This document shows positions 1 to 50,933 of a stretch of DNA of 64,000 nt, one piece after another (within the stretch, counting starts at the first letter, position 1; the number at the start of each line of letters is the position of its first letter). The translations under genes were made by a program, and so were the position numbers. The notes beneath the pieces were generated by a model that saw only the letters and a list, made by a program, of their open reading frames with translations, did no database searches and had not been told where the DNA came from. The DNA lies in the NCBI GenBank assembly GCA_046563655.1, contig CM102286.1:2542001-2606000 (forward strand). Reading direction: 5' to 3'. The stretch comes from Yuukianura sp. NJ FZ-2021. Lineage: Eukaryota.

Positions 1-1809
1 GTCGCTCAAATGGAACCGATGTGGTGACGAAACATAGCAATGGCGGATACCACACTTGGTCGTACACGTTACGTGAAAATATGACGCAATTCTTATGTTC
101 CGACAATATTTGGCAAACTAACGACCGAGTCTGGAGTGACCCTATCAACATCACCGTCACTCCACGAAGTAAGAATAAAAGTAGAATTTCGTACCTATAT
201 GATCAGCAAATTTTGTATAAGAGTAACTTTAATATTAATTTTCCACTAACATTTATTCGTAATTTAGTTATAGTTTGTGGTATTCTGGAACTGAAGTGCG
301 CCAGTGGACAATGCGTGAGGTATCAAAAACTTCCTAAGTACATTCAAATTGCAACAAACTCTTCTTAAAAACTATAACATCTATGATATTTTTTGTATAT
401 AGATCCAGTTACAGATGTGACGGCGACCGGTAAGCCAATCCCACTTAACATTTACCACATTTATCTGAGTTAAAACATTAACTTTTCCATTGGCTTTTTT
501 CTTTAAAAATAATTTGTGTTGTTCGTACTTACAGTGACTGTTTAGATGGTACTGACGAGCTCAATTGTCCAAGCACGACTACGACTACAGCTGCACCTGA
601 AACTACCGTTTCCTGTACATACCTTCAATTTACTTGTCACAGACATCGCTATGTCAACGAGTCTAGCGAAGCTTGTATCCCAGGTACGTATATTGAATCA
701 TTCCTTTACTACGTAATTAGCTGAAGAGGAATGAGGAATAACTTTACCATAATCTAGGTACATTTACCACAGTTTTTTTCACTCATTTTTTTTTAATTTC
801 AGTGGCGTATCGATGCGACGGAGACAAGTAAGTTGACCAAACACAAAATAACAACAAAATTTCCGAAGTTTGTCATAACTTTAGTGTACTATTTAAAAAA
901 TTGCTGACTTTAATCATTGTAATTGTTTCAGAGATTGCGCAGATGGCGAAGATGAAGAGAATTGCCCATCAACAACCACAACCACTACTACAGAAGTTCC
1001 CATTGGTAGCTACAAATTTACAAAAGGCGCCAAATTCCAATACATTAATCGACTTAACCATGTGTAGTATAACATTTCAACTGTTTAGGTTGTGGACCAA
1101 GCATGTTCGAGTGCAACAATGGCGACTGTATCAGGTAAGGTAGCTTTTACCGACATAGTAACTTGGAACATGTTCTTTACTGACGTATGTGGCATGGGTA
1201 TATTAGAATACACTTTTTGGTATACATTGTGGGGGTATATTATGGTAATATTTTAGTATACATTATGTATTAGTATAAATGTATAATATTTGGATATATT
1301 TTAGGGCCTCATACAAATGTGACTTGATGAAAGACTGTAAAGACGGTTCGGATGAACACCCAATACAAGACTGTGGAAACATGACAACTGCTGCCCCACC
1401 GGCTCCACGAACTTTACCACCAGTACCGGAACCCGTTCCAGAACCGGTTCCAGAAAACAAGACCGATTCTTGGTTTAACTTTGACTCTAAATTTACGGCT
1501 GAACCTGAACCAGAATCGTCTTCAGCTGGAGCTACAGCTGGTATTATCATTGGAGGTAATTTCAAAAATTCAACTTCTACCACAATCATCGTAAGTTAAA
1601 AGTCACAGTCTCGATAGTGCAGCTTACAATTAAAGTTTTATTGTTTTGCAGTAATACTGGTCATTGCACTCATCTGTCTGGCAGGATATGTTGTGTATAC
1701 TCGATATTACCCGCACGTCACACTTCCGCGGAGAGGCGTGGCAACTACTGCTTCGAATATCAAGTATACGAATCCGACATGTGACCAGGAAGAAGTTCTT
1801 ATAGGTTAA
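1..1809 (+). CDS. Single-pass membrane protein with three LDL-receptor class A repeats (5' end outside window)
   Basis: Spliced exons give LDLa motifs [52 protein letters not shown] and CNNGDCIRASYKCDLMKDCKDGSDEHPIQDC, with Thr/Pro-rich linkers. TM segment GIIIGVILVIALICLAGYVVY; short tail ...IKYTNPTCDQEEVLIG, stop TAA 1807-1809. GT-AG introns keep the frame. Confidence 0.85.
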
Positions 1810-3976: not shown

Positions 3977-4305
3977 TTCGATAACCAATTAATTCGAAAT
4001 TTATTTTGAACGATTTTACAGTAAATGTAAGGATTTATGTTCTACTCCGACTTCAAATCATGAACAACATGCTATGAAGGTCTGGAATAATTTTCGGTGA
4101 GAATTCTGTCAGTTTTTCATATCGTGATCAATTGAATGTAATTAGAATGACCTTTACAATATTACTTGGAATCTTCCCTTGAAAAAATAAAGGATGCTAA
4201 CGTCTCTTGTCAATCAACCGACGCGACGTCCTAGGGGTATGAAACCTAAAAATAAATTGTAACACAATACTTGGATACCAATTGCTTAAATATCCTATTC
4301 AAAAA

Positions 4306-5112
4306 TTATGTTGAGCAACTATCAGGGTAAATACTCTGTAGCTTGTCTATGACATCCCGGAATGCAGGTCCCTCGTAGCGAAGTTCGTCAGTCCAGTAAG
4401 AAGAAGAGGCGTTGCATCTGCGCAGTACGACGTTTGAATGGTCGCCATGCTCAAATGTTGCTGACATTTTTTCGTAGTAGTGACAAACTTCCTGGTCATC
4501 TCCTTCTCTAGGTGTTGTTCCATATGGTGGACATAGGAAATCAATAAATGCTGCATATGGACGCTCGAGAGGTGATCGATCTTCAGATGTTGATGTATCT
4601 GCGAAGTATTCGATTTGATGGATATTCTTTTCTTCTGGTTCGAGTATTTCCGGACGATGTGATGAACTGAGTATATTGGAAGTTCCGCCTCTCGCTGTAA
4701 AGTAAGGTCCATCACGACCAAGGATTGTGAAGCTACTAATCTTGAGTTTGCCAGCGATTACTTTAAGGGCTCCTTCCATTCCAGGATGATCGTGTAATGG
4801 AAGTTGACCTCCTTTGAATACAACGAATATCCCGAGACTAAACCATTTGTTTTGGTGAAGTTCCATGTAACCTACTGGAGCCGGAGCGTTGTGGCTTTTC
4901 ATTTGCTGAATGCTCTGTTTCAAATTGAAATCTTCCTCGGTGGTACAGTGTAGAGCATCCAACAATTCGTCATGGGTATCCAAGTATCCTTTGGGCAATG
5001 AACTGCGCGACGTCGATGATAGAGATCCATGCCCAAGACTGTTTCCAGGGGCATTCATAATAGCACCATAAGCGTAGGCTGCTTTCAGTATCCGCTCGAT
5101 TTTCGATTTCAT
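4306..5112 (-). CDS. ADO: 2-aminoethanethiol (cysteamine) dioxygenase, PCO/ADO cupin family
   Basis: 268-aa intronless ORF with LPLHDHPGMEGALKV, NIHQI and AAFIDFLCPPY motifs plus C-terminal YEGP, all characteristic of ADO/plant cysteine oxidases. Confidence 0.92.
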   Translation of the reverse strand: MKSKIERILKAAYAYGAIMNAPGNSLGHGSLSSTSRSSLPKGYLDTHDELLDALHCTTEEDFNLKQSIQQMKSHNAPAPVGYMELHQNKWFSLGIFVVFKGGQLPLHDHPGMEGALKVIAGKLKISSFTILGRDGPYFTARGGTSNILSSSHRPEILEPEEKNIHQIEYFADTSTSEDRSPLERPYAAFIDFLCPPYGTTPREGDDQEVCHYYEKMSATFEHGDHSNVVLRRCNASSSYWTDELRYEGPAFRDVIDKLQSIYPDSCST

Positions 5113-5841
5113 TTCGTTCTCTTCAGCAATCTAACGCATTACAAACAGTTTGATTAGGTTACATCGTGTAAGTGGTAAAATAACAAATATTAGAATAAGA
5201 AATTAAGGCAAGTAATTACCTGTTAAATTTATAAATATATCATGTATAAATCAAGCCCCAATTTCCAGAGACAGACTTCGTAATCGTAACAGCTGTGCTG
5301 TTGATATCCAGGAATCCAGGCTCACTGTATGAAGCAAATCCTTCGAATAATAGAGCTGAATTAATTAGCTGAATTAGCGGTAACTTAACTGCAAGCTAAT
5401 TGATAATTAAAGTTAGACTTTCGTCGGCTACGTTGTTTAGAATACACCATTTTTTAAGAAAGAAGCGCAGTAGGGTTTATTTGAACAAGCGAAAGATAAA
5501 CTAAACTCTACAAGAAAAATAAGAGAAGGGTGACAGGGAGTGAGAGAAGAAACCGCTAGAATGACTTGCAAAATTAAATCAAAGTTAAATTTTTAAAGTT
5601 TCGCGCCATGTCCACAGCCCTCGTTACTGCCATTTCGACGTATTGAAAACGTATTAGCACCTAAACCTTATAACCCGTATATAAGCAACCATTTAAAATA
5701 ATTAAATAATTAAAATAAAATGAAATAATTAAAAAATAAATAAATCAAAAGCGATTAAAATGTTATCTACTACGACTATTCAATGGGATACCGGCGAAGC
5801 TGAGAAATAAGCTGCGAAATGGTTGGATTTTTCAAAGCAAA

Positions 5842-7154
5842 TTACGGAAGGCTATCGAAATTGATTTGAGGACGACGATTGACCTCTTTCCGGATGAAAT
5901 CTACACCAGTTTGGACCATTTCGTCAAAGAACCCGCAATTTTTCAAAAAGAAGTGTCCATCTTCCGATACACCACCAGCGTAGTCATGTCGTCCATTTCT
6001 TGACGTCTCATCCCCAGTATATCTTGCCTTCACAACTTCCTTCATAGTACCGTCAATCATTCTTACCCATTGGTTCTGGAACAAAACCTGTCTGGGAAGA
6101 TGACCTGTTTCTGGTAAGAAATTTTCTGAAAACGAATACAAGCCTTTCAGATACGTTGACTTTTTTGGTTTCTGGAAACTTGCAATCAGTTGCCAATCGG
6201 CTTCCGGGGGACGAAACCACGCAGTGCACTTTGTATTGTCAGCATCCAATGGAACAGCAGTGAGTAAAAACTTGTATGTTTTGTCCGTTGTCCAATAGTG
6301 TTTTAGGAAGGACTGCTTTCCAGAACCTTCACCGCCAAAGTCATAGACTTCCACGTTGGGACCTTTCTCCAGCAATATGACTCTGTACTCTTCTGGAATA
6401 TGCTCGGGATTGTCAGTGTCAAAGTCCGACCAAACTGAAAACAGAATACGTCTCTCCGTGAAACCGTTCACTTGCATGCCGAAGTATCCCTCGGAAAATC
6501 CATTGGCCATAAAGTAGGCTCCGATTACGTCCTGTCCAGGTTCAACTCTGATTTCGTTGTAAAAGTATTCAATGTTTCCTGTTATTTGCGGATCGTAGTT
6601 AAAGTGGATCGATGGACCTCGTCGTCCGAAGTAGAAAAAATCAGGATCCGAAACATAAATAACGTCGCCGACGATGTTTGATAGGATGACTTCCGCGACG
6701 TCACCGAAGTAAGGTCCAGCCTTGGATATTCCTTGGATGTCAAGCTGGACATATCCAGCGGCATCGGTTGAAAATTCACCAATTGGTTGAATATATGATT
6801 CGACTCCTTCAATTACGACATCGTAGGTCTCTCGACCTGCAATCGACACACGAATCAGGCTACTTCCTTCGGGTACTTTTAACCTCAGCGAGACCGGGAA
6901 ATTTTCGGCTCCAGCCAATTTAAAAAACACGCTGCATATTGACTCTGGATCCATCCAGTTTCCTAATCCGGCGTCCGTGATGATTTCAGGCGATTGGTAG
7001 CTGCCATATTTCGTAATAAATGCATTACCCCCAAGGTGAATATTGACATCTCTCTCCAACTGAAAGTATACAAATTATTTCACAAATTATGAAGTTTGAA
7101 AAATGAATTTCAAAAGAAGTTAGGCTAAGCTGAATTTACCTTAGAAGCTGCCAT
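5842..7154 (-). CDS. Bacterial-type DUF5077 + DUF3472 domain protein (candidate horizontally acquired gene)
   Basis: Motifs FYFGRRGPSIHFNY, EYFYNEIRV, YFMANGFSEGYFGMQVN, ERRILFSVWS, DFGGEGSGKQSFL, YSFSENF and FFLKNCGFF match my recollection of Bacteroidetes DUF3472 proteins. Micro first exon ATGGCAGCTTCTAAG (MAASK, 7154-7140) is joined in frame to exon 7059-5842 across an 80-nt GT-AG intron (7139-7060). Confidence 0.8.
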
Positions 7155-8204
7155 TTCTTCTTCAAATCCAAAACGAATTTGTACCTATAAATTTAGTAGG
7201 ATGAATTTACGCCAGTATTAAACTGCAACAACTCCGGAACAACGCAAAAGATGGAATATTTTGTTAACCTTATAATAAATTTAAGTATGTCACTCACCTA
7301 GTTACGTATTCATGACGCATGACGCTGGAAGTCAATTAGCAAGTTTATCCGGGACGACTCAAAAACGACGCAGTGGGGTGACACAATTGCATTATTAATT
7401 GTTGACTAAATGATTAATTTTAAGTGAGGAATTAGGTCATCCTTGTCAGCTTCTAGAATTTAGTTGATTTGAACTAAATTTCAAATTTACGACGCCATAA
7501 CACATTTTTTGCGGGTTCTTGCGCAGGGTGGGGCGATATGAGATGAAAGTACTTTTTAAATTAAAATTCGCGGCAACAGAAAACCTAACTCAAGTTTTCG
7601 GTTTTTTTTTAAACGAAAATATTTGCATTACTAAAAATTGTTTCACTCGTCAATTGTTAATTGACGATTACGAATTTACATACAGTGTGTATTTTAAACG
7701 TTCCTACATAGTATCAACTACGGTAAAAACGGTGTCGACGAATCCGCGTTACGGTAACTCAATATTAAAATAATTCGAATATGCGTTTGTATTTTTGAAA
7801 GTCGGACTAAGGGATTCCTAAAGTCACTACCTGGCACCATTCATTCCATCGAACTTCTATCACTGACGAAACAACGAAATCTCTAAGAATTTAACTATTT
7901 TTATAGTTATTTACTGAGTGATTAATTTACTTCTTTTATTTTTGTTTGCAGAGACAAAGAGGAAGGTCAATCAGGAACTGAGTATAAGGCAGGCAGGCGC
8001 GTAGCGAGTAATTGGAATCTCATCGCGGAACAACGGTACAAATTGAAAAATAGAACAAGAAGCGAATTTACATTTAAGAATTTAAATTATTCCATGTTCT
8101 GTTTTACGACTTGCTGATTGCGATTCTGATATAAATTTTAGACGATTTATAAGGCAAGGCACGCACACTCAGGCTTACTGTGATTGGCATCCGCTTAAAA
8201 CAGA

Positions 8205-9793
8205 ATGAGAAGAATAGAACGAGCATTCAAAGCATCATACGTTTATGGCGGTGTTATCAATGGCCGTGGCAGCATGTACCATGGATCGCTATTGTCGGCA
8301 TCAGCAGCACAGAACTCACTTCCGATGGAATCAGCGTATTCAGATACACAATGTGAACTTGCAACAGGTGTCAAACGCTATTCTCGTGAAGATTTTAACT
8401 TCAAACAGAGCATTCACACGATGAGAAACCTTCACGCCCCCTCCGCTTATGTGAGCCCTTACGAAAGAAAATATTCAAGTCCCCCTAATCCGCCAGAAGC
8501 ATTGGGGCCTACAGTACCTTCTATTGTACCAACTTCGACTGTAAAAAAGAGGATCAAGCGGAAAGGGGGAACATTACAACAGGAAATGGAAGAAACGGAA
8601 TCTGAAGCTCGCTCTAGAACGTATCCGGTTGTAGCTTACGCAACATGCGATGAAATCAATTTGGAAAAGCTGAGGAGAGGCCTTTCCGTGCAGGGCCTGT
8701 ACGTTGTGACTGCATGGCCGAAAGATTGCGGTAAACGAAATTTTAATTGACTTCAGCCCGTATTAACTTTTCATGATCAACTTGAACCGCTGTGGGCTAT
8801 TAATTATTAGATGCAGCTCTTCATGATGTCATTCATGTGCTGGCCAAGTATCCTACAAGCGATGAGCCTAGGGAAATTTTTTTCTTTCGCGAAGGAACTG
8901 TCGTCTTTTGGAACGTCCCAGAACTGGAGCGAAACAATGTGCTACTGTAAGTCTTGACTTAATCTCATGCAATGTAGATTGGCATTATATAATCTTAACC
9001 AAACTTATTACTGTTTTTGTGTAGATTCCTTTCAGAATTCCAGGAAGAAAGTTATGGAGCCGCCGAAGTTTTGCAAGAGAGTGAGTACATGCTGTACACT
9101 CACAGTTCAAATGAGCAGCAAAGGTGAATCTCAGATTCCAAAACAATCGTTTCAGTATTTCTTTTCCTAGATATTTAAAGAGGAGGTCAAATTTTTTGTC
9201 TTTTTTAGACAAACCAAGTTAGTTCGAGGTCAAATTCAGCTAAGCCCGACTTCAGACAATCTGACCCTGGAGAAATATACTGTTGCCAATTCAATGGCAC
9301 TGTCAGTGAAACTTGGAATATTGGAGTCAACGCTGGATAAATTTGTGGAGGGTATTGATCAAATGACCGAGGTAACCTCTCCAAAGCATGAAATCGCTGA
9401 AAATCAAATGGCTTCACAGTGTTTCAATGTTTGTTTACCTTTTAGGAACTCAAAGCCGGAACAAAACTGAAAGCAACTCGTGCTGAAGTGCTTCGGAAAA
9501 CGGGCGAATTATTCTCGCTTCGAAATGAACTGAATTTGAATTCAGATTTACTGGATACTCCAGACTTTTATTGGGAACATGAAGACCTTGAAAGCTTGTA
9601 TCACAAAATGTGCAACTATTTAAGTATCGGGCGTCGTACAGGAGTTATGAACGAGAAATTGTCACAGTGTTGTGAACTATTAGAACTCATAACGGGATAC
9701 TTGAATGACAAGCACCATGTTCGGCTGGAATGGATGATTATTGCCTTAATTACAATTGAGGTTGTCCTCGGCCTAAGTCACTTTGTCAAGTAA
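8205..9793 (+). CDS. RMND1: Required for meiotic nuclear division 1 homolog (DUF155 / RMD1-Sif2 family, mitochondrial translation factor)
   Basis: Exons ~8205-8730, 8811-8946, 9025-9080, 9171-9371, 9446-9793. Motifs VVAYATCDEINL, EIFFFREGTVVFWN, LEKYTVANSMALSVKLGILE, LNLNSDLLDTPDFYWE and HHVRLEWMIIALITIEV (C-terminal TM). Confidence 0.92.
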
Positions 9794-11178
9794 TTTGACA
9801 AATTGCCTTACATTTTTACTAAAATACTTAATTGATGACGACAAATACTTATTTTCGGTAGTAAAAATTTGTGTAATACCTAGTATTTGCGTTATAATTT
9901 GGAGATCTTTGCAAAAGCGGAAGCATCCCTTCATTTCTAAAAATTTTTGATCCTGCATCTAAAAGTTTTATTTTTTGATTTTTCAGTTGACTTGCTTCCG
10001 GACTTTAGACATTCAATTTTCTGTCATCAATCAACAACCTCAGCCCAGCGTCCATCGTGTGACTGTCGTCTCGTCCGTGGTCAGTGACGACGGACAAGTC
10101 GTTTCTTGACGTCGTATGTGGTGATACGTCTAGTATTAAAGTTTCCTGCAATTGTGGGTTTAGGTACTTGGAGGAGGATGGAAGTTGCAACATCTTACAT
10201 CAGCAGTTGTGGCGACTATAACAAAAAAGTGAAGATTATTTGGAAAGTGTAATACAGTTACAGTTTTACACTGCATCAGCATTAGGTTTAAATTTAATTT
10301 TTATGATTATGCTCCCATGCTTCCTTGCGTTTTTGAGCGTTGAGTCATCCTCTCACACTATGATTTTTTATGTTTTTGCACATAAAATATAGCAGAGGAG
10401 GAAAGTGGTTTAGGTTTGGTGGTTGAAAAGGAAAAGGGAGTTCCTGTTTGGTGCTGTATCTCTCTTCGCTTCACTGACTACTGACATCATGTTAAGTCAC
10501 CAGCTGATTTATAATTAAACAAATTAACAGGAAAGTGGACAAAAACTATATCATAAACACTTCAGTCCAATTCAACCCGTATCCACTTTGGGAACACTTC
10601 AGCGCCGTTATCTTTACGTTACTGGTGAAGCGGTTTTAGCAGTTTCGTGACATTGACCTAAATTGACACATTTCATCTTCGTTTACGTCCGACGACGAGG
10701 TGTGGTGTAATAGTAGGCGTGGCTCGCAGTAAAAGAAGTACTGAGAGGTAATTCGTTATCTTTGCAATTAAAGGTAAAAACCTTTTGTACTAAAATGTAA
10801 GATTTTAGATCTAAAGAAAGATTTACATTACGATTGCACAATTACACTGTTTGTTTTATTCAAGGTTTGACTGCGAACGGGCAATAATCGGGTTTACGAC
10901 GTACGTTCATCTCCACATCCAAATGTTGATAAGGTCGTTCCCGATTCCTGGACTTCCTGCGACAGGTCACTAAATTGTGCCGTATACGCAGTACATTGGG
11001 TTCTACCACTTTGGTCTTGGTTGAATACGAAATTGAATCGAACTATCGAGGACACCGACGTCTACCCGGCAACCCAGCCTATACGTTACCTCTCGAATGC
11101 AAGAGGAATTCCAAGTCTTCCTACTTCGTCGCAACGATTTTGCTTACCGACGTTTTTATACTTACGACATTTGATACA

Positions 11179-14100
11179 ATGAAGCAGTTTAGTAAATTCA
11201 AGCAATTTGCCGACAAGGCCTTCGTTCGGTAAGGAAAAATACTTTGGTAATTCCTATTGTTTTAACAAAGTATTTTATTGATGTATTCATTGTCATTTCG
11301 CAGTCCGGATCGTACTGAGGTGATGTCAGAAGACCTGCTTTATGCGGAAAAGCACATAGAGTTAATGAAGCTCACCTGTGAAACTACAGTAAAGAAACTG
11401 GGTGCTTTTATACAAGTTTCTGGACAAGCCAAAGAGGGTGCCACCATTGCCAGAAGAATAGTAAGTTCCGCTTTTACGATAGTTTCCGGTCAATTCTATT
11501 ACAGTACTTATTTTGGATTTTGTGTTTAGAAAAAAGTGCCAGAATGGGTGCTGGGATCAAGTTTAGACGAGCTAGGGAAAAAGTACGACGAGGGTTCCGT
11601 CCTCGGGTAATTCATTTTTTATTTTATTTCAAATCGCAGTAGTCACAGTATTAGTATTATTATTCTTCAATTGTTTCTCCAGCACAATTTTGACTGAAGC
11701 TGGAAAAATAGAAATGACAATTGGGTCTCAGATGACTGCTTTAGAAGGGAAAGTGGAGCCGATTATTGCAGACATTCAAAAGTTGGTGGATAATGATTTC
11801 CCTAGCATTTACAAGCAAAGACGAAACTTAGCAAAACTATCTGAAAATATGGATACGGCGAAGAACAAATTACAGCAAGCGAATCGTCATTCAGTGTCTA
11901 CTGCGGCTGGCGGTGGAAGGATTGACAACTTCAAGGACGAATTGGACGAGTCTCAAGTGAAGGTGGAGCAGTGCAGGGTGAGTACTGAAGTTGAAGTGAA
12001 TTTAGTTAATTACTGATCGTAAGTCATCTTCTTCTCATTTTTTAGGACAATCTAGCGTCAGAAATGTATCAACTACTATCGAAGCAGACGGATATTGCAC
12101 AATCAATAGTCCAATTTCTCAAATATCAGCAAGAGTACCATCAATACATATCCAATACATTGAGCGATCTACTACCGGAAGTTGAAGCTGCCTTGGCCAC
12201 TTCTACTCATAAGCCTGTTTATGGCACTGACCTCAACGAGCATTTAGTTACAAGTGGAAGAACCATTGCCTACCCGCTGGAATTTTGTGTGTGCTGCCTC
12301 CTCGAAACTGGACTTAAGGAAGAAGGCCTATTTCGTATCGCTGGAAGTGAGCTTGTTATCGCTAAATTGTTTTCGAATTGCATTTTGAGTTCATATTTTT
12401 TTCTTAGGTGCTTCTAAAGTGAAAAAGTTAAAGTCGGCCTTCAATGCCTGGGTCCTTGATTCTGATCTGAAGGGACTCATGGCCGAGTTCAATGATCCCC
12501 ATGTCATTGCAAACGCACTTAAGTGTTACCTTCGAGAGTTACCGAATCCTTTGCTAACGACAGAGCTGTACAACGATTGGATTAATGCCATCCGAGTACA
12601 AGACAATCCAGAGAAGTTACAGGCCCTGTGGAACGTTGTCCAGAAACTACCGGAAGGTAATCGAGAGAACCTGCGATATCTCATTAAATTCTTGCGAAAA
12701 CTATCGGATCATCAGGACGTGAATAAGATGAGTGCGGCAAATATTGCAATCGTGCTGGGTCCTAATCTTCTGAGCAGTCCACAAGCCTCGGATGAAATAT
12801 CAGCTGATTCGACACCAATGGGACTCAACATGGCAATGACTCACTGGTTCAGTTCTATTGTTGAACAACTTGTCACGTATGCTGACTGGTTCTTTCCTGG
12901 AGGTATCACATTACTTTACTTGCAACTTTTCGAAAAATTGTATAGTACAAGCGATGATGTGCTCGTGATTTTTAGATTTCGAATTCTACGTCACCTGCGA
13001 AAAACCGGAACCGGAGTGGGTGTCGGTGAATCTAAGACATTTGACCGGTCATCAATCTGGATCAACACAAGGTCCTCTTCCCAATGGAAGCAGTACCGAA
13101 GACATTTTAGATGACAATCAAGCATTGAAACGATCACAATCAAGTAGTAGCCTGGATGAAAACTCAGGTCAAAACGGAAGTCCAAAACCCGTAATTCGAC
13201 GTAAAGTGAAGCATGCACCGCTGCCTCCAACCAATCCATTACCGAAAACAACCGAAACGAAACCCAGTGATACACCAAAACCCGAAACAAAGTCAATTCC
13301 ACGAGACACGCCTAAACAGACTCAACAGTCACAACAACATCCTCAACGTCCACCGCCAATTGATCCTAACAAACCATTCGCTGTCACGAAGAGAGAAGGC
13401 ATGTGGATCCCGCCCAGCCCAAGTCAGATGAACAACAATCGCTTGTCAAGTGTACCCCAACAAGGTCACATTTTCACGGCGCCTCAGCCAGTTGCAAATC
13501 CAGTGGCTCCTAAAGCTGTTCCGCCTAAACCGCCACAACCGAGTTTCATAAAAGAAAAAACCGGAAGTACGGAACCAAGTTTCCTCAAAGATAAAACCGG
13601 AAGTACGGAACCGAATTTCCTCAAAGATAAAACCGGAAGTACGGAAGTTTCGAATACTGTGAGCTCCACACTCCGCCACAAGTCGTCATTTCGTACTCCA
13701 AGTAAGTTGGACTCAAAGGAGGAAACTGGAGCCAGTGCTACTTCGTACGCAAGTTTACCAAGGCGGTTCCATTCTGAAAATTCTTACCGGAACTCGTCAA
13801 CACCAAAAGTAATGGATATTTTCCCGATCAAGGCTGAAGGTGTGACAGACGCTCCGAAAATGACGGAACCTCCGAAGTTGCCGGAACCAGTGAAGGAAAT
13901 TAAAAGCGATTCACCACCAGGAAAAGACTCTAGAAAAAGTTCAGCCCAACAAGTTCCAGAAGCAGTCACTACGCCTGTTACCAAATCGCTTGAGCAGGTC
14001 AAGGAAATCGCTGGAGCTACTTTGCATATTGGGTTTGAGAAGATCGCTTCTGAAGTAGTGAGCGAATCAAAAGTGGAAACAATAAAACCGGATACTGTAC

Positions 14101-14751
14101 TAGGAGGGGCTGGAAAAGGAGATGCTGCCACTGAATCTGCAACTGCCAGCAGTCCAGTTGAGTCCAAATCACCAATACCAAGCAGAGTTCCGTCGGCAGA
14201 TTCTTCCAGACCCGTTCCAGCACCAAGGTCAAGTTTACATAAGGACGGAATGGAACCTGTTAGCCCAGTAGCCAAATCTGTGCCTGGCATGCCCAAAGAA
14301 CGACCTTCTGTGAAAGCAAAACCGCGGGATTTGGGCAAAAGAACTCACGGAGAACACTCATTTCCTACGCATTGTCGTAATAGTAGTGGAAGCGGACAGG
14401 AGTCGGAAAGTGACGTCCTTGGTGACGGAAAAGCTTCCACTCCGACATCTCAACCAACAAGTAGAACACATTCGAGAATTGGTTCTGCCGGGGAGGACGT
14501 GAAGGTCAGTGATGTGATTTTAAACGAACAAGAACGAGGCTCTATTCCTGCTGGAGAAGACGACCTTCGGGATACTCATGGTAATGGCAAGCTTTTAGAA
14601 ACCACAATTAAGAAAATTTAACTACAATTAATCAAAATTTTTGAACTTTTAAGGTTCTAACACGGGAAGAATGCCACTTCGTCCACCACGTCCTAACCCA
14701 CCAGCTCCACCTAAAGGAAAATCACCAAGAGACAGCAGTACTGACTTTTGA
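11179..14751 (+). CDS. BAR-domain RhoGAP of the RICH/Nadrin family (ARHGAP17/44; RhoGAP92B-like)
   Basis: N-terminus MKQFSKFKQFADKAFVR...TEVMSEDL; helical BAR region; RhoGAP motifs PVYGTDLNEHL, GLKEEGLFRIAG, ALKCYLRELPNPL, NKMSAANIAIVLGPNLL; long Pro/Ser-rich tail. Last exon 14654-14751 ends ...PRDSSTDF*. Confidence 0.9.
13539..13646 (+). repeat. 36-bp coding tandem repeat x3 (P[S/N]F[I/L]K[E/D]KTGSTE)
   Basis: Three consecutive copies of cc(g/a)a(g/a)tttc(a/c)t(a/c)aaaga(a/t)aaaaccggaagtacggaa inside the RhoGAP tail. Confidence 0.9.
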
Positions 14752-15659: not shown

Positions 15660-16830
15660 ATGAAGTGCACTTTGGCTGGATTTTTGTTGTTGAATTTCAT
15701 CAGAATTTATTTCGCCGGTACGTAAAAAAACAAGTTTTTTTTTATTTCGGACTGAATTGATGTATTTTTTTCCTGTTTTAGGAACAATTCGAGAAGGCAA
15801 AATAATCGGAGGTCAAAGTGCAGGACCGTCACAGTTCCCATGGGTGGTTGAAATTCGTACAGTGAGATCCTTATTGGACTTGAACAGTCGGAAGTGGTGC
15901 GCAGGCTCCATTGTAAGCGTCAATTGGATAATAACTGCTGCCCATTGTGCATCGCTGCAGCCAAGTCGCTACCTAGTTCTGGGTGGATCCAACGACGCTT
16001 TACTACCGCTGTTGAGTACGCTCCAGCATCGAACAGTGACAACAGTTAAAATTCATCCCAATTACAATGCGTAAGAATATAAAACAAACGTTTATCACAA
16101 ACTTTTTCAAAAAAAAAATGAAAATTTGAATTGTGGTTCTTTATTTTTGACAATAGAAGGACCAGAGAGAACGACATTGCGTTGATGCGTGTAATTCCGC
16201 CGTTTGTGTTTGACAATTCGACGGTCCGAAGTATACCGTATGCACACTTTAACTTTTTACTCAACGGTGAGAATGTGAATTTTTTATTTTTGAAATTTTT
16301 TGATGGCGATTTTTTTTATAAATTAGGAACAGCTACTATTGCTGGATGGGGTGCTCGAGATGATGCTGACGAGAGGGGTCCACGATACCTTCAGTACGGT
16401 AGCGTCAAGCTGCTCCAAAATTCGGTTTGTCAAGCAGCGCGTAACGACACGACAATTTTGCCTAGTCAAATTTGTGGAACTGGAACAAGCAGTATGCCGG
16501 TAAACTCAAACTAAAAGAAATTCCAGAAACTTAACTTTTCAGTACTCAAAATGAAAAAAAAAATGTGTGTTTAGTGCAACGGAGATGACGGTGGTCCAGT
16601 GATGAGCAATCGAAACGGTATACAAATCTTGGTGGGTATAATCTCCGAAACTGGTGGAGGATGTGCCCGTGGATTGCCACCTAAAATATGTAGGTTTACG
16701 AATTTTAGTTCTTCCCATCTGTCAAATGCATGCGGTTTACGTACAGATAGTATCTAAAAATATTTGTTTTGTAACAGTTACAAGAACAACAATTTTCTAC
16801 GACTGGATCCAAGTGGTTACAACGATCTAA
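15660..16830 (+). CDS. Trypsin-family serine protease homolog (catalytic Ser replaced by Asp)
   Basis: Signal-peptide exon MKCTLAGFLLLNFIRIYFA (15660-15717); activation site GK|IIGG; TAAHC; ENDIALM; IAGWG; CNGDDGGP in place of GDSGGP; last exon FTRTTIFYDWIQVVTTI* (stop 16828-16830). Confidence 0.88.
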
Positions 16831-19096: not shown

Positions 19097-20461
19097 CTAA
19101 ATATTTTTGACATCCCTGATTATTATTACCCATACAAGTTGAGCCCATTTTAAAATTCTCAGGTTGCCCCATTCCAAAACGAAAAAGAAAAGCGACACAA
19201 GTGACAAGGTCATATAAAGGACAAACGTTCCCCGGAAATGGCCCATGGACAAGACAACAATTTCAGTCTGAATTAACCTTGGCCTTCTCCCTACCGTTTT
19301 CAAAGTTTCTTGGCGCTCTTGCAAATAAAAATTTTCAATCCACTTTGAAATTAAGCCCGACTCAAAGTATGAATCCGATATGAAATTAAACGGTTCAACG
19401 AGGTCTGAACCTGGCTTAAACGCAAAAGCCATGATTCCCCAGTGGAGTGGCTGCGGCAACTGATAGTAACCGACTCCCGGGTACCGAACCGAAAAATTGC
19501 TTCTGAGGAACGAATCTGCTGCAATGTCGGATGTGAGACAGGCCACTTTTGGCTCCAAGATGGCTTCCGTAACGCACTTTGAAATTGTCGAATCTTGTAG
19601 CCTGTCTCGGATAGACCGAACTGCTGGAGATGAATTGTTGCCCTTAAAAAAATGAAGAATAGCTCCACCGCGGTGATTCAAGTTCAGACGGTAGTCGGTT
19701 GCAGCAAGGTCATTCAATGACCTTGGAATGTACCCCTCTTGTCCAGGACCCGTAAGGGATGCCATTAAATGACTTTTGTAGCCAGCCGAAATTACCAGCA
19801 CAAAAAGTAGCCAACCTGTCACCAACAGTCGAATTTTGACTAAATTCGGTACCGTAATTGATTGGTCCATAAGTACAGCAAAGACGTGTAAAGCCGAGGT
19901 CACACCAGTTTGTCTGTGAGCATATACAAAGTAGAACGTCAAAATTGTTGAAACAAATGACAATAACGTTAAGATCCAAACGTCCATTGCGTATGAGGCC
20001 AAGATAGAACTGGATTTGACGATGGGACGTGACGTCCAGAAGAAAATTTGCGCGTAGGATAGCAAGCGTGAAAATTCTACTGCCTTGTTTCTTTCGTAAG
20101 TTCGCGCCACGAGACACATTTCGGCGTCACCGTGAACAACATTACCGATAGTTCCAATCCAAGTTCCATTTGGCAGTTGATTTCCCGCTCCTACCGGATT
20201 TACCAAAATCGAGTACGAGAAATTCATTACTCTGGAAGAGTGGTCCAAGATTTCTATTGCAGGACCGTGAAACTTTTGAGTTTGAGCTCCAGTTTTTAAA
20301 GTGTCGTACAATGGAGTAAGTAACGGCAAAATGGAAAGTCGTATAGCTCGAGAATTTAAAATTTCTCGAGCAGTTTTTGAAAAATTTTCGTCGACTTTTT
20401 TACTTTCACAATAAGAAATGAAAATAAATAAAGTAAAAAACTTCTTATTGAAACTCATCAT
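19097..20461 (-). CDS. Divergent ionotropic receptor (IR, iGluR superfamily), intronless
   Basis: Signal peptide; S1 region NGTWIGTIGNVVHGDAEM...ERNKAVEFS; M1; M3-like IRLLVTGWLLFVLVISAGYKSHLMASLT; S2 FESGLISKW; M4 VLSMGHFRGTFVLY. Confidence 0.88.
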   Translation of the reverse strand: MMSFNKKFFTLFIFISYCESKKVDENFSKTAREILNSRAIRLSILPLLTPLYDTLKTGAQTQKFHGPAIEILDHSSRVMNFSYSILVNPVGAGNQLPNGTWIGTIGNVVHGDAEMCLVARTYERNKAVEFSRLLSYAQIFFWTSRPIVKSSSILASYAMDVWILTLLSFVSTILTFYFVYAHRQTGVTSALHVFAVLMDQSITVPNLVKIRLLVTGWLLFVLVISAGYKSHLMASLTGPGQEGYIPRSLNDLAATDYRLNLNHRGGAILHFFKGNNSSPAVRSIRDRLQDSTISKCVTEAILEPKVACLTSDIAADSFLRSNFSVRYPGVGYYQLPQPLHWGIMAFAFKPGSDLVEPFNFISDSYFESGLISKWIENFYLQERQETLKTVGRRPRLIQTEIVVLSMGHFRGTFVLYMTLSLVSLFFFVLEWGNLRILKWAQLVWVIIIRDVKNI

Positions 20462-21268
20462 TTCGAATCAGTATTAACGTTACCTCGAAAATCGTATTCT
20501 TAAGTATACTAAGCTAAAGAATCCAGTTCAATAAAATAAGTTTTCGTGCACTTCAATGTCAAGGAAGGGTGGAGTGAGTGACATTTGACAGTGACTTATT
20601 AGCGTACAAATGGTAGCAGCGTTGTCCCCAGTCCGCCCCTCATTAGTTTTCCAAGTTCGACAATATATTTCAGTTACAACTAAACAGATACCCGTGTCTG
20701 ATATTGACACATCGACATCACGCTACAATTAATTACAACCATAGGTCATTCATGAGTAAATCGAAGAAGCTAGGAGATTTTTGACAACTTGTTAAAAATC
20801 TATAGCGTCTTCGATTGGCTCAAAATGTGGTTGAACCTAATTAATTGTATCGTGATGTATCAGCATCACGTGTATCTTTCTAGTACGTAGTAAAATCAAA
20901 ATTTTACATAATACACACATAATTAGAGGACGGCACACGATACCATGGAATTTTTCAACAACTTACTATCTACATTTAAGCTACGCTGATTATTACTGTT
21001 TGAAAATGAAATTTGTAAGTATTTCCAACAATGGAAGTTTTTGTACTAAACAAATTACCACTTTTAACCTTCAAATTTTAATTTCCAGCACCTTGCATCG
21101 CATTGTAGTTATAATTTGTATAGTTGGAAAAGTGAAATCAGAAGTTTAGAAATGGGAAAACTGGTGACACAGCAATTATTTATGGCCGTATTTTAAACTG
21201 CTGCTGGTGTTCGTAATAATAACTGTGAGTTACGAGCTTTGCGCATAAGCAGTGCCTGGTTTGAAGTG

Positions 21269-22317: not shown

Positions 22318-24492
22318 ATGAGAAATCGAGAACCGCCGGCCAATGTCAAGGTTGCCATAGGAGGAGGTGACACGTTCTTTGGCCTCCCAGGAGCAACGAC
22401 CGGAGACAACTTGAGAGGTGTCATGGGTAAGCATACTAATTTATTAACTTATTGTTTTAACAGTATTTTGTAATGTTAGTTCTTTAACCTCTTTAGATAA
22501 CCAGGGACATGAACCAACTGGAAAAATTGCCAATAATTTAGTGTTTTCCAACATGAATTGAATGATTGTTTAGTTTTGTTTTAAAATGTTTTCAGGAGAC
22601 ATAAATCTGGACCGTGTGGACGTCGAGAAGGACTTCATGATGGACAACGACCATTTCCTTTCATCACATATGCCGGAGGTTAGTCCTTACAAAACTAATT
22701 GAAACAAACTATAACTACTTAGGAAATCACCGTGAACTTCTGTTCTGTTTGATTATAGATGGACTTTGACCTGTTTCAAGATCTCCAGCTCCCTTCCGAT
22801 TCCATTTTCCAAGATTTCCTTGGAAATGGCGGAATGGATGATTCGGATGGTTCTCAAACCTCTTCTGATCCTGGCTTCGTCGAGCCATATTCGACATCGG
22901 AAGCATCTCTTAGTCCGTCGAGCTCCAACGGAGTACGATCTCCCACGTCTGTTTCATCTCTACCAGATACTCCCAGTCCGAACCCAAATTACATTCCATT
23001 CAGCATCCCTATCGGCATTTCTTCAGCATCCCTTCTTACAACTGGCACAAATATCAACCAAGGCTTTTGTTTCCCTAGCGTAGCTTCACCAAATACTGCT
23101 TCTAATGCTGCCACGTTGGAACAAATTCGAAAGCCAGGTCGTCGTCGATCTGGTTCCAACGAATCCCCTGACGTGCAAGCCATGAAGCGACAGATTCGTA
23201 TGATCAGAAACCGTGAATCGGCATGTCTGTCACGGCAGAAGAAGAAGGATTACGTGGCAAAGTTAGAAACGGAGATCAAGGAATTGGAGGCTGACAACTT
23301 GCGACTACGACAGGAGAATACGTTTCTAAGGAGCCGGCTCGGAGAGTTCACGAATGTCATGCTGCCCAAATCCACTGCTACCGATTTACCGTTGTTGTCA
23401 ACTGCTACTGCTGTACAGAAGGAGCGGAAGATGAAAAATGGAACAAAGAACGTCATTGGAAAAGTCGTCCTGTTTACTGTCTTCACATCGCTGTTCCTGT
23501 TCTTGAGAGCTCCAATCAATTCGGATATACAGCACTCAAGATTAACTTCCAACGATTCAGCATCTCTCCCGAGGCTAAGCAGAACACTGGATTCTCCATT
23601 TCGGTCACGATCAACTCCTCCCGCTGGCAGGCTCAAGAAAGAACCTGTACGTCCAGAACTCAACAGTACGTCTTCCACAAACATCAGACCGGAATGGTTT
23701 CCACTGGTCAACATCTCGGGAAGTCCGGCTAACAGCTCGCTGGATCGATGTCCTCTTCTGTTCAATCAAACTGAAGCTTTAAGGTAAGGAAATGAAATAC
23801 TAAGCTGTAATTTTTCATTAAGGTTGTTCTTAGTAGATCCTGTCACGATTTACCTCTATTTTTCAGGGTCCAGAATGATCTGGAGGGCTTATTCAAAGTG
23901 AAGCCAAAGAAGCCCCGATTGAAGAAACCGATTGTCTACCACCTTTCTCAGTTGGACTTTCGTCAGGAAGATGATGACAACAAGGTGAGAAAGTGCTAAC
24001 GCTACGAAACCGTTGTTTTGAATTAATGCGTTAGTTAGCGTAATTGTTAATTCCTTTACTTTCTCAGGGCCTTACCCTGTACGACGAGAAGCAAGGAAAG
24101 TTTTCAGGGTTGTTGGAGAAGTTGGAAATGCGACAGGATACTTTCTATGTTCTTTCCTTGGCAGTTGAAAATCAAGTGCTGCTTTCGGCCAAGGCTCACA
24201 ACGAGTCTTCCAGACCAAAAATGTCCTTCTTGATGCCTTGGAGGAATGGTAAGTAAGGAATGCAAATGCAACTGATCATGATCAGCTGATTGATCAGAAT
24301 ATGATCAGCTGATTGATCGGACTTTGATCCGAGTTTGATCAGTATACCGTGATTTTCGGTAGGAATAATTTGCTATGTATTTGATTCACAGATACTCTTG
24401 ACGGAAAAGAGGAGCTGATGCAGATTGACTGCGAGGTTACTCGTGTTCTGAACTTGGACAAACGAAACCGGAAGGAGCGCAAACGGAAGTAG
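22318..24492 (+). CDS. ATF6: Cyclic AMP-dependent transcription factor ATF-6 (membrane-bound bZIP)
   Basis: bZIP KRQIRMIRNRESACLSRQKKKDYVAKLE; TM VVLFTVFTSLFLFL; luminal RxxL-type site; conserved luminal motifs FNQTEALR, RQDTFYVLSL, HNESSRPKMSFLMP and LMQIDCEV; stop TAG 24490-24492. The 5' exons (22318-22426, 22596-22678) are less certain. Confidence 0.9.
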
Positions 24493-28298: not shown

Positions 28299-28593
28299 CT
28301 TTACCGTTCCTGTTATCAACAAATGTGTCAATTAAAACCGTTGTTAACTAACATGGGGTACCGAATAAGATTACTACCAACTTTGCACAAAACTAAACTT
28401 ACTCTTCTTGATTCATAAATATCATGATACTTTATTGACTGTGTTACCTCTGTGATCGTTGTACGGCAGTTCTTGATGATAAACAATTAGTTAATTACAG
28501 CTGGATTATTATTTTAAGTTGTTTTTGTACAAGTTTGACCGTTGCTGTTACTCTTGTTGTTGACAAGAATCTTCCCTATATGGTATACTATAG

Positions 28594-49700: not shown

Positions 49701-50016
49701 ATTGTGTACACAACAATGTGTGTTATGACAAGGTCACTTCTGTCTGTCCTCTAAGGTTTATTCTTGGTCATACCAGAAATAACAATTCGGACCTTAATTA
49801 CGCCACCAATTTAGTAATTGTTGGACTTGTATATGTATATGCTCCTGTTGACCATGAATTTGTTCCCTCCAATTTTCAAAAAATCATTTGCTTATGTGTA
49901 CATAATGAGTTGAAGCGTGACGGGTTTCGTTCAATGTAGCTGACGGTTACGACGCAGAAAAATTTAGTTTTGCCTTGGAAAAAAGTCGTTGAGAAAACAG
50001 AGTTCGGCACTTTTGC

Positions 50017-50345
50017 TCCGCTCCCATGCACCCGCTCCCCGCTCTTTTGCCTCTACCCTCCGCTCCCATGCACCCGCTCCCCGCTCTTTTGCCTCTATCC
50101 TCCGCTCCCATGCACCCGCTCCCCGCTCTTTTGCCTCTACCCTCCGCTCCCATGCACCCGCTCCCCGCTCTTTTGCCTCTATCCTCCGCTCCCATGCACC
50201 CGCTCCCCGCTCTTTTGCCTCTACCCTCCGCTCCCATGCACCCGCTCCCCGCTCTTTTGCCCATACTCTCCGCTCCCATGCACCCGCTCCCCGCTCTTTT
50301 GCCCCTACTCCCCGCTCTCAAGCGATCTTTTCCCGCTCCCCGATC
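50017..50345 (+). repeat. 42-bp tandem repeat (~7 copies) ccgctcccatgcacccgctccccgctcttttgcctcta(c/t)cct
   Basis: Directly visible; explains the repetitive ORFs in several frames. Confidence 0.95.
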
Positions 50346-50933
50346 CCAACCACGTAATTATAGCTGAATATGCCGCTGTTACAGCTGGCGTAACCGTCAG
50401 TTGATTATGTTGTATGCAGCGTTGCTGGATATCAACTTTTTCGACATTTCATCCACGACTGGATATCCAGTGGAAGATATGGGCGAAATGGATGAATACA
50501 GATGGGCGGAGCTTTGCCCGCCGGCTTTGAATTAAATAAATACAAGAAGCTTAAACAATTCAAAATACCGTACGAAAACATAGAAAATATCGTTTTTGTA
50601 TGAATTTTAAATAAATAATTTTAAGATGAAAGAAACACTTTCTGATATTATTTTCTGTAATTTCACATTTGATTTTTTTAAGTTTTCGCTGAATTCTTAA
50701 TTTCTTGCCTCCACTAAAAGTTTCATCCATTTCAGGTGCATTTCTTCCAGTGGCTATACAGTGGAAATGGCAATTAATCCACTGGATGTTTAAACGTCCA
50801 GCAACACTGATTGTGTGCGATAGGAACACGTTAAGAACAAAGTAAACTTAAGTAGTGGTAACTATGCGTAATACAAGCGCCTTAATTTCCCTCTGATTTT
50901 ACAATTCTAATAACCTCACCTCGGCACTTTTGT

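What the first reader, a model, noticed from the sequence alone, without database searches (positions are those of the whole stretch)
4850..8460. RMND1 carries a copy of the neighbouring ADO N-terminus: chimeric gene from a local inverted duplication
Seen: ADO (- strand, ATG 5112) begins MKSKIERILKAAYAYGAIMNAPGNSLGHGSLSSTSRSSLPKGYLDTHDELLDALHCTTEEDFNLKQSIQQMKSHNAPAPVGY. RMND1 (+ strand, ATG 8205) begins MRRIERAFKASYVYGGVINGRGSMYHGSLLSASAAQNSLPMESAYSDTQCELATGVKRYSREDFNFKQSIHTMRNLHAPSAY. A hand alignment gives ~38 identities over ~86 columns in collinear blocks (IER, KA.Y.YG, HGSL.S.S, SLP, Y.DT..EL, EDFN.KQSI, M....AP..Y), while many third codon positions differ, which suggests protein-level constraint. 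Established: these families are unrelated; the I.RI..A, ED.N and P.(V).Y elements belong to the ADO N-terminal region; RMND1 is mitochondrial and normally has a poorly conserved presequence. Inference: the ADO 5' region was duplicated and co-opted as RMND1's first exon and targeting leader, or an ancestral locus sharing one 5' exon was split by duplication. A shared localisation or interaction module for a thiol dioxygenase and a mitochondrial translation factor is possible.
Basis: partly seen in the sequence, partly recalled or inferred. Interest (0 to 1): 0.9.

Follow-up and report, generated by a model that had tools for sequence, protein, structure and literature searches.

The report
ADO-derived leader on springtail RMND1
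In this springtail-like genome the first 92 codons of the mitochondrial gene RMND1 are an old, inverted copy of the start of the neighbouring thiol-dioxygenase gene ADO, a real but fairly ordinary kind of chimeric gene that probably supplies RMND1's import leader.

Summary
ADO residues 1-92 (window 5112..4837, minus strand) and the first 92 residues of the RMND1 exon-1 ORF (8205..8480, plus strand) share 39 of 93 aligned positions (E 7e-17). The score lies 27 SD above 2000 shuffles.

ADO is the donor. Five ADO orthologues carry the same N-terminal elements, and none of 120 RMND1 homologues does. RMND1 homology to springtail orthologues begins at 8478-8532, where the ADO likeness ends.

The copy is old: synonymous sites are near saturation and the flanking DNA shows no likeness. 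It is not decaying neutrally. The 92 codons stay open with the ATG kept, which happened in 2.2% or fewer of neutral simulations. Pairwise dN/dS is about 0.3, with a 95% interval reaching 0.58.

Only Met1 gives a presequence-like N-terminus, so use as the mitochondrial leader is the best inference. It is untested: no RNA run was listed and no relative's genome could be searched.

This is a new member of a known kind, a chimeric gene whose presequence was acquired by partial duplication. Interest is moderate.

The parts
4306..5112 (-). ADO (2-aminoethanethiol/cysteamine dioxygenase) gene. Single exon, 268 aa plus stop. This is the donor gene.
   Evidence: ORF. Pfam PF07847 PCO_ADO at 1.5e-26. 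Matches human and mouse ADO structures at E 7e-17. AF2 model has pTM 0.81.
4837..5112 (-). ADO codons 1-92, the segment that has a paralogue in RMND1. It comprises helix 4-19, a low-confidence loop at 20-40, helix 41-55, short helices at 59-71 and the first beta strand at 80-87.
   Evidence: Alignments. Secondary structure of the AF2 model. The metal-binding H-D-H motif lies downstream at residues 107-109, outside the copied part (sequence).
8205..8480 (+). ADO-derived leader, the first 92 codons of the RMND1 exon-1 ORF.
   Evidence: BLASTP E 7e-17. Shuffle z = 27. tblastn match at 8211-8480. No Pfam hit on its own. Net charge +4 in the first 40 aa and the highest hydrophobic moment at residue 1.
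8481..8730 (+). RMND1-proper part of exon 1: linker, K-K-R-x-K-R-K-G-G block and the conserved region upstream of DUF155. A GT donor follows at 8731.
   Evidence: tblastn of springtail RMND1 proteins starts at 8478 (P0011), 8517 (P0014), 8526 (P0017) and 8532 (P0008, P0009). Donor GT checked.
8811..9793 (+). RMND1 exons 2-5 (8811-8946, 9025-9123, 9209-9371, 9446-9793 including the stop). The whole model is 423 aa.
   Evidence: Exons 2, 4 and 5 match DUF155 at profile positions 1-23, 56-105 and 106-174. Best-scoring GT-AG model; the core is 66% identical to P0008. tblastn colinearity.
5842..7154 (-). Intervening gene between the two paralogous segments. It encodes a DUF5077 + DUF3472 protein in two exons (7154-7140 and 7059-5842) with an 80-nt intron. 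It is not part of the chimera but lies inside the inverted pair.
   Evidence: Pfam PF11958 at 8e-91 and PF16871 at 3.3e-29. Exon and intron boundaries were read by eye.
8130..8204 (+). Putative core promoter and short 5' UTR of RMND1. TATAAA is at 8130-8135 and a C-A step lies about 31 nt downstream. No ATG occurs between there and 8205, and the ATG has A at -3.
   Evidence: Read by eye. This is inference only, with no transcript data.

Best explanation
A DNA-level, local, inverted partial duplication copied the start of the intronless ADO gene: the start codon plus about 92 codons. The copy became joined in frame to RMND1 exon 1, just upstream of the first block that RMND1 shares with other springtails. 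It replaced the ancestral, poorly conserved presequence region.

The fusion is old. Synonymous sites are near saturation and no flanking likeness is left. It arose after this lineage split from the lineage of its nearest RMND1 relatives in the database.

The chimeric ORF is translated from the inherited ATG at 8205. The copied piece carries no catalytic residues. It most likely acts as the mitochondrial import leader plus spacer of RMND1, because ADO's basic amphipathic first helix and the acid-poor, Ser/Ala/Gly-rich loop after it already have presequence character.

Shown: the homology, its direction, the in-frame junction and non-neutral retention.
Inferred: the mechanism of duplication, translation from Met1 and the targeting function.
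For: Homology:
- BLASTP E 7e-17 and z = 27 against shuffles.
- There are only two ADO-like places in the 64 kb window.

Direction:
- 5 of 5 ADO orthologues share the N-terminal helix, the (A/E)-E-D-x-N/G-L element and P-V-x-Y, as does human ADO.
- 0 of the 120 RMND1 homologues listed (of 144 hits) match the 90-aa leader at E < 1.
- The nearest relative, P0008, starts with an unrelated N-terminus.

Lineage-specific origin:
- The leader is 45% identical to this genome's ADO. The ADO N-terminus is only 26% identical to its nearest orthologue, P0003.
- In 25 of 79 columns ADO equals the leader but differs from P0003.

Junction:
- The ADO likeness ends at 8480, and RMND1 orthologue likeness starts at 8478-8532 in the same frame.

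Age:
- pS is 0.64, dS about 1.4-1.8 and dN about 0.42-0.45.
- The 400 nt upstream and 300 nt downstream are no more alike than shuffles, while the coding part scores 45 against a shuffle mean of 17.5 +/- 2.2.

Retention:
- Under neutral substitution, 92 codons stay open in 0.5-5% of 5000 runs per distance.
- Open frame, ATG kept and at least 42% identity together occur in 2.2% of runs at d = 0.3, 0.66% at d = 0.41, 0.06% at d = 0.55 and 0% at d >= 0.7.
- All 5 gaps in the alignment are whole codons.

Leader function:
- From Met1 the first 40 aa have 5 K/R, 1 D/E and a peak hydrophobic moment of 0.82 at residue 1. The medians for 90 full-length RMND1 homologues are 5, 1 and 0.62.
- The downstream Mets at 24, 41, 73 and 128 give net charges of -2, 0, +1 and -2.

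Placement:
- The RMND1 core sits in a 100/100 clade with Orchesella and Allacma, sister to P0008 and P0009.
Against: - There is no transcript or protein evidence, so the start codon, the first-exon boundary and the splice are model-based.
- dN/dS alone is not decisive. The bootstrap 95% interval is 0-0.58, and 8% of replicates give omega >= 0.5.
- The RMND1 copy evolved faster than the ADO copy (13 against 4 polarised changes), so its branch omega may be near 0.5.
- In the most generous neutral scenario (d = 0.41), identity of at least 42% alone is reached in 58% of runs. There the rejection rests on the open frame and the kept ATG.
- Likeness is spread evenly over all 92 residues, with dN of 0.35 in codons 1-44 and 0.54 in codons 45-92. 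That is longer than a typical presequence needs.
- The targeting heuristics are crude and are no substitute for TargetP or MitoFates. ADO N-termini of other species score similarly although ADO is described as cytosolic (from memory).
- No second species with the chimera was found, so conservation across species is untested.
Confidence: 0.6

Rival explanations
1. The ADO-like stretch is a relic that is not part of the main RMND1 protein. Transcription or translation would start further downstream, or an unseen upstream exon would splice in past 8480, leaving the stretch as 5' UTR, intron or a minor alternative first exon.
For: - No RNA evidence could be obtained.
- A strong acceptor-like site (pyrimidine tract plus AG) at about 7950 and an AG at 8202-8203 show that other 5' structures are conceivable (read by eye).
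- dN/dS by itself does not exclude relaxed evolution.
- The RMND1 copy is the faster-evolving one.
Against: - An untranslated relic this old should carry stops. 92 codons stay open in only 0.5-5% of neutral simulations, and 2.2% or fewer also keep the ATG and 42% identity.
- All 5 alignment gaps are whole codons.
- Divergence is specific to codon position, at 0.68, 0.68 and 0.42 identity.
- The segment is in the same frame as the RMND1 core, with no stop between them.
- The downstream Mets give acidic or neutral N-termini unlike those of RMND1 homologues.
- tblastn with five springtail-clade RMND1 proteins found no other N-terminal exon in the window, although presequences are too variable for that to count for much.
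Confidence: 0.15
2. The leader is translated and kept for an ADO-specific property beyond import. Possibilities are a shared binding partner, a shared regulatory or degradation signal, or co-localisation of ADO and RMND1.
For: - Likeness extends over the whole 92 residues. It includes lineage-specific loop residues (H-G-S-L, S-L-P) that other ADOs lack.
- Codons 45-92 are still 40% or more identical, further than a presequence normally reaches.
Against: - In the ADO model the copied piece is two helices, a loop with pLDDT below 60 and one edge strand of the barrel. These pack on the cupin core, which the copy lacks.
- The RMND1 copy shows relaxed evolution relative to ADO.
- No partner of the ADO N-terminus is known to me (from memory), and no paper holds both names.
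Confidence: 0.15
3. ADO and RMND1 descend from an ancestral locus that shared one 5' exon, later split by duplication.
For: Only the head-to-head neighbourhood of the two genes.
Against: - ADO is a single uninterrupted ORF here.
- ADO orthologues from distant taxa carry the N-terminal elements as an integral part of the protein.
- None of the 120 listed RMND1 homologues, including the other six members of the springtail clade, carries them.
Confidence: 0.02
4. The likeness arises by chance, from composition or by convergence.
For: None.
Against: z = 27 against shuffles, E 7e-17, and the blocks are collinear from the start codon onward.
Confidence: 0.01

Closest known systems
Plant cytochrome c1 precursor, whose mitochondrial targeting part was derived from GAPDH exons by exon shuffling (Long et al. 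1996). I saw it only as cited in passages of PMC2031878; the details are recalled from memory.
   Same: A mitochondrial protein's N-terminal leader is recognisably copied from the coding sequence of an unrelated, non-mitochondrial enzyme gene.
   Different: The case here is in an animal. The donor is the immediate neighbour, in inverted orientation, and the copied part is the donor's own N-terminus including its start codon. The copy is fused within an exon rather than added as separate shuffled exons. The recipient already had a presequence, so this is a replacement and not a first acquisition. Function is untested here.
[quoted passage not shown] 1996). I saw it only as cited in passages of PMC2031878.
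   Same: A leader is obtained by duplicating the 5' part of another nuclear gene.
   Different: There the donors were genes of mitochondrial proteins with proven presequences, and the recipients were genes newly transferred from the organelle. Here the donor is ADO, which is not known to be mitochondrial.
Chimeric genes formed by partial local duplication in Drosophila (for example Sdic and jingwei). Recalled from memory, with no call made.
   Same: A partial duplicate of one gene supplies the promoter and 5' coding part of a neighbouring gene, creating a fusion ORF.
   Different: The Drosophila cases are mostly young tandem (direct) duplications in which the parent recipient gene is retained. 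Here the pair is inverted and old (dS >= 1). The chimeric copy is the only RMND1 seen in the window, and whether another copy exists elsewhere in the genome could not be checked.
Par17 prepeptide in hominids (PMC2031878; abstract and passages seen).
   Same: An N-terminal extension that gives or renews mitochondrial targeting arose recently in one lineage.
   Different: The Par17 prepeptide evolved stepwise from non-coding sequence. Here the leader is copied from another gene.

Membership tests
ADO/PCO thiol dioxygenases (Pfam PF07847): donor gene 4306-5112 | Match to the PCO_ADO profile above the gathering score | tested here: met
   93.5 bits against a cut-off of 27; residues 59-250 cover profile positions 7-200 of 201. 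E 7e-17 to human ADO 7rei.
ADO/PCO thiol dioxygenases (Pfam PF07847): donor gene 4306-5112 | Cupin barrel with a His metal site (H-x-H plus a distal His) | tested here: met
   H-D-H at residues 107-109 aligns with human L-H-D-H-P. The AF2 model has a beta barrel from residue 80 and pTM 0.81. The definition of the third His (in N-I-H-Q-I-E) is recalled from memory.
ADO/PCO thiol dioxygenases: the RMND1 leader 8205-8480 | Cupin barrel and His metal site | tested here: not met
   The likeness stops at ADO residue 92, before strand 2 and the H-D-H motif. There is no Pfam hit. The leader is a fragment derived from ADO, not an ADO enzyme.
RMND1 / DUF155 family (Pfam PF02582): gene 8205-9793 | DUF155 domain | tested here: met
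   Exons 2, 4 and 5 match profile positions 1-23, 56-105 and 106-174. Exon 5 alone scores 84.4 bits against a cut-off of 27. The core is 66% identical to P0008, which matches DUF155 at 1.1e-50. The gene sits inside the springtail RMND1 clade.
RMND1 / DUF155 family (Pfam PF02582): gene 8205-9793 | C-terminal transmembrane segment (architecture MLS-DUF155-CC-TM, from the figure legend in PMC7564844) | tested here: inconclusive
   A hydrophobic stretch sits at the C-terminus of exon 5 (W-M-I-I-A-L-I-T-I-E-V-V-L-G-L). It was seen by eye and no TM predictor was run.
RMND1 / DUF155 family (Pfam PF02582): gene 8205-9793 | N-terminal mitochondrial localisation sequence | tested here: inconclusive
   Charge, acidity and amphipathicity from Met1 equal or exceed the medians of 90 homologues. 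No dedicated predictor or experiment was available.
Chimeric gene by partial duplication of a neighbour | Donor paralogue present, with the segment absent from orthologues of the recipient | tested here: met
   None of the 120 RMND1 homologues has the segment.
Chimeric gene by partial duplication of a neighbour | In-frame junction inside one ORF | tested here: met
   A single ORF runs 8199-8750. The two homologies abut at 8478-8480.
Chimeric gene by partial duplication of a neighbour | The fusion transcript exists | not testable with these tools
   No RNA run could be listed and no genome is held.

The most novel reading that the evidence does not exclude
In this springtail lineage the ADO N-terminus, with its lineage-specific acid-poor Ser/Gly-rich loop, may itself be a working mitochondrial or dual-targeting and docking module. 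ADO and the mitoribosome-associated factor RMND1 would then be delivered to, or held at, the same site by homologous leaders. This would link an oxygen-sensing thiol dioxygenase to mitochondrial translation. The retention of residues 45-92 in RMND1 would reflect that shared docking function rather than mere spacer tolerance.
Probability: 0.12. Interest if true: 0.65.

Novelty: new member of a known kind. Interest (0 to 1): 0.4.

Why it matters
This is a clean, datable example in an animal of an essential mitochondrial protein having its N-terminal leader replaced by the coding start of an unrelated neighbouring enzyme gene. It shows that a basic amphipathic first helix of a non-mitochondrial protein can be pre-adapted for use as a presequence.

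It offers a simple experiment: test by fusion to GFP whether each of the two leaders imports. It also cautions annotators, because homology-based pipelines may mislabel or truncate this RMND1.

It does not open a long-standing question. Presequence swapping and chimeric genes made by partial duplication are both established phenomena.

Tried and rejected
Searches that returned nothing usable:
- Whole-genome search for further ADO-like copies: no genome is held for this window.
- RNA evidence: no RNA holder was listed for 4300-9800, so read laying could not be used.
- The search for homologous proteins with exon 1, longer proteins only: none of 682 candidates scored.
- Exhaustive HMMER of the 90-aa leader against 1.84 billion representatives: 2 hits, both long repetitive proteins unrelated to ADO or RMND1. 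This species and its close relatives are evidently not in that library.
- Two scans of metagenome contigs, one with exon 1 and one with the two-leader alignment: pattern matches were found but none was confirmed by tblastn.
- DNA likeness outside the coding segment: upstream score 24 against shuffles of 20.4 +/- 2.6, downstream score 20 against 18.2 +/- 2.3. Neither exceeds the shuffle maximum.
- The inverted-repeat finder recovers only the coding likeness (53 nt at 75% identity, and 23 nt) among many short AT-rich chance pairs.
- Literature: no paper holds both 'RMND1' and '2-aminoethanethiol dioxygenase'. In the Sci Adv 2024 ADO paper (PMC11446280), the passages I searched gave no statement that ADO is located in mitochondria.

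Readings considered and rejected:
- A partial retrocopy as the mechanism. Retrocopies tend to lose the 5' end, not the 3' end, and this copy sits 3 kb from its parent. This is inference only.
- R-10 and TOM20-type motifs, seen by eye in the leader (R-A-F-K-A-S-Y-V-Y-G, I-E-R-A-F, Y-G-G-V-I). They are low in information and the motif definitions are recalled from memory, so I give them no weight.

Full report
**1. What is in the sequence**

The minus strand carries an uninterrupted 268-codon ORF with its ATG at 5112 and its stop at 4306-4308.
- It matches Pfam PCO_ADO at 1.5e-26.
- It matches solved human and mouse ADO structures at E about 7e-17.

The plus strand carries an ORF that opens right after a TAA at 8196-8198. 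Its ATG is at 8205 and it runs to a GT donor at 8731.

Four further GT-AG exons follow: 8811-8946, 9025-9123, 9209-9371 and 9446-9793. Together with exon 1 they give a 423-aa model.
- Exons 2, 4 and 5 match Pfam DUF155 at profile positions 1-23, 56-105 and 106-174.
- The core of the model is 66% identical to the nearest database protein, P0008.

In a maximum-likelihood tree of 30 RMND1 rows, the window's protein lies in a 100/100 clade with Orchesella (two species) and Allacma. It is sister to two unnamed transcript-derived proteins, P0008 and P0009. The window is therefore most likely from a springtail with no close relative in the databases.

**2.

- BLASTP of the ADO protein against the translated RMND1 exon 1 gives 39/93 identities and E 7e-17.
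- The local score of 153 compares with 26.2 +/- 4.7 (maximum 48) for 2000 shuffles.
- MAFFT gives 40 identical columns out of 96, with five gaps, each a whole number of codons.
- tblastn of ADO against the whole window finds only the gene itself and 8211-8480.

**3. Direction of the copy**

Five ADO orthologues, the only hits at E <= 0.001 among 430 candidates, were aligned.
- All have the N-terminal helix (M-x-x-L-I-E-R/K), the acidic D-V/F-N/G-L element and P-V-x-Y.
- Human ADO aligns through the last two of these elements.

Of the 144 RMND1 homologues found with the last exon, 120 were listed.
- None matches the 90-aa leader at E < 1 in a local BLASTP.
- The springtail relatives have unrelated N-termini.

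The ADO family is therefore the donor.

The leader is closer to this genome's own ADO (45%) than that ADO's N-terminus is to its nearest orthologue, P0003 (26% over 90 aa). In 25 of 79 comparable columns ADO and the leader agree against P0003. The copy was therefore made within this lineage.

**4. The junction**

Homology of the window to springtail RMND1 proteins begins at 8478 (P0011), 8517 (P0014), 8526 (P0017) and 8532 (P0008, P0009). This is in the same frame, and it starts exactly where the ADO likeness ends at 8480.

The relatives have 42-153 residues before that point and the window has 92. The ADO piece therefore occupies the position of the usual variable presequence region.

**5. 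Age and selection**

Divergence:
- Nei-Gojobori estimates give pS 0.64-0.69 (dS about 1.4-1.8, near saturation) and dN 0.42-0.45.
- Identity by codon position is 0.68, 0.68 and 0.42.
- DNA flanking the coding segment is no more alike than shuffles. The breakpoints are therefore erased, except for the one inside the coding sequence.

Constraint from dN/dS:
- The bootstrap median omega is 0.31, with a 95% interval of 0-0.58. In 8% of replicates omega is >= 0.5.
- dN/dS alone therefore suggests constraint but does not prove it.
- Polarising changes with P0003 gives 13 on the RMND1 copy against 4 on ADO (one-sided binomial about 0.025, calculated by hand). The RMND1 copy evolves faster, with a branch omega that may be near 0.5.

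Constraint from the open frame (5000 neutral simulations per distance):
- The 92 codons stay open in 5.0% of runs at d = 0.3, 2.2% at d = 0.41, 1.4% at d = 0.55, 1.2% at d = 0.7 and 0.5% at d = 0.9.
- Open frame, ATG kept and at least 42% identity together occur in 2.2%, 0.66%, 0.06%, 0% and 0% of runs at those distances.
- Third-position divergence implies d of about 0.55 or more per branch.

Neutral decay of an untranslated relic is therefore unlikely. The stretch has been kept as coding sequence under relaxed but real constraint.

**6. What the copied piece is**

The AF2 model of the window's ADO (7-row alignment, pLDDT 78, pTM 0.81) places these elements in the first 92 residues:
- helix 4-19
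- a low-confidence loop at 20-40
- helix 41-55
- short helices at 59-71
- strand 80-87

The second strand and the H-D-H metal site at residues 107-109 lie beyond the copy. The leader alone has no Pfam match. It cannot be a dioxygenase.

**7. Likely function**

RMND1 is described as MLS-DUF155-CC-TM (figure legend of PMC7564844).

| N-terminus (first 40 aa) | K/R | D/E | Net charge | Peak hydrophobic moment |
|---|---|---|---|---|
| Window RMND1 from Met1 | 5 | 1 | +4 | 0.82, at residue 1 |
| Median of 90 full-length homologues | 5 | 1 | +4 | 0.62 |

Starts at Met24, Met41, Met73 or Met128 would give net charges of -2, 0, +1 and -2.

A TATAAA at 8130-8135, the absence of any ATG before 8205, and an A at -3 fit translation from Met1 (read by eye).

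I therefore infer that the ADO-derived segment now serves as RMND1's import leader plus spacer. This is a heuristic inference, because ADO N-termini of other species score similarly.

**8. Mechanism of origin (inferred)**

The copies are head to head, 3,092 bp apart. A complete two-exon DUF5077/DUF3472 gene lies between them.

A local inverted DNA duplication of the ADO 5' part is the simplest reading. It could have been a whole-gene copy followed by a deletion, or a copy made by template switching.

Retroposition is less likely, because the copy keeps the 5' end and lies beside its parent. Because ADO has no introns, this cannot be tested from the sequence.

**9. Comparison with the known, and verdict**

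Copying a leader from another gene is described for plant cytochrome c1 and rice rps11. I saw these only as cited in passages of PMC2031878. Chimeric genes formed by partial duplication are well known in Drosophila (recalled from memory).

No paper in the library holds both gene names.

The case is a new member of a known kind. Its features are:
- it occurs in an animal
- the pair is inverted
- the donor is a neighbouring gene
- the donor is not known to be mitochondrial
- an existing presequence was replaced rather than a first one acquired

It is real and neat. Expression and function are untested, and no second species is available for comparison. Interest is 0.4.

**10. What remains open**

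- Transcript structure and the start codon, because no RNA run could be listed.
- Whether other copies exist in the genome, because no genome is held.
- How widely the chimera is distributed among springtails.
- Whether residues 45-92 are kept for more than spacing.

Noticed in passing
window 5842-7154 (- strand): A DUF5077 + DUF3472 protein gene (Pfam 3.3e-29 and 8e-91) sits between ADO and RMND1. It has an apparent 5-codon first exon, an 80-nt GT-AG intron and no obvious signal peptide. As I recall, these domains are mainly bacterial and fungal, so this may be one of the horizontally acquired genes reported for springtails.
   Followed up: partly
window 49940-50404: A tandem repeat is open in several frames on both strands. 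One frame reads as repeated P-L-P-C-T-R-S-P-L-F-C-L-Y-P units. It looks like a minisatellite rather than a gene.
   Followed up: no
window 7925-7951 (+ strand): A long pyrimidine tract ends in AG, resembling a strong splice acceptor, about 250 nt upstream of the RMND1 ATG. A 7-codon ATG-started mini-ORF lies at 8094-8117. These could mark an upstream non-coding exon or a uORF of RMND1, or could be chance in AT-rich DNA.
   Followed up: no
P0003 and window ADO residues 20-40: The window's ADO and its nearest orthologue, P0003, share an extra acid-poor, Ser/Thr-rich loop between the first two helices. Four other ADO orthologues lack it, and it is modelled with low confidence. It is also the part that gives the leader its presequence-like composition.
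   Followed up: partly
window 11576-14621, 15694-16514, 19097-20467, 22759-23787, 25835-28331, 61114-63752: Other long ORFs in the window, judged by eye from their translations, look like ordinary animal genes: RhoGAP-like, trypsin-like protease, ionotropic receptor-like, bZIP, C2H2 zinc fingers and semaphorin-like. None was checked.
   Followed up: no
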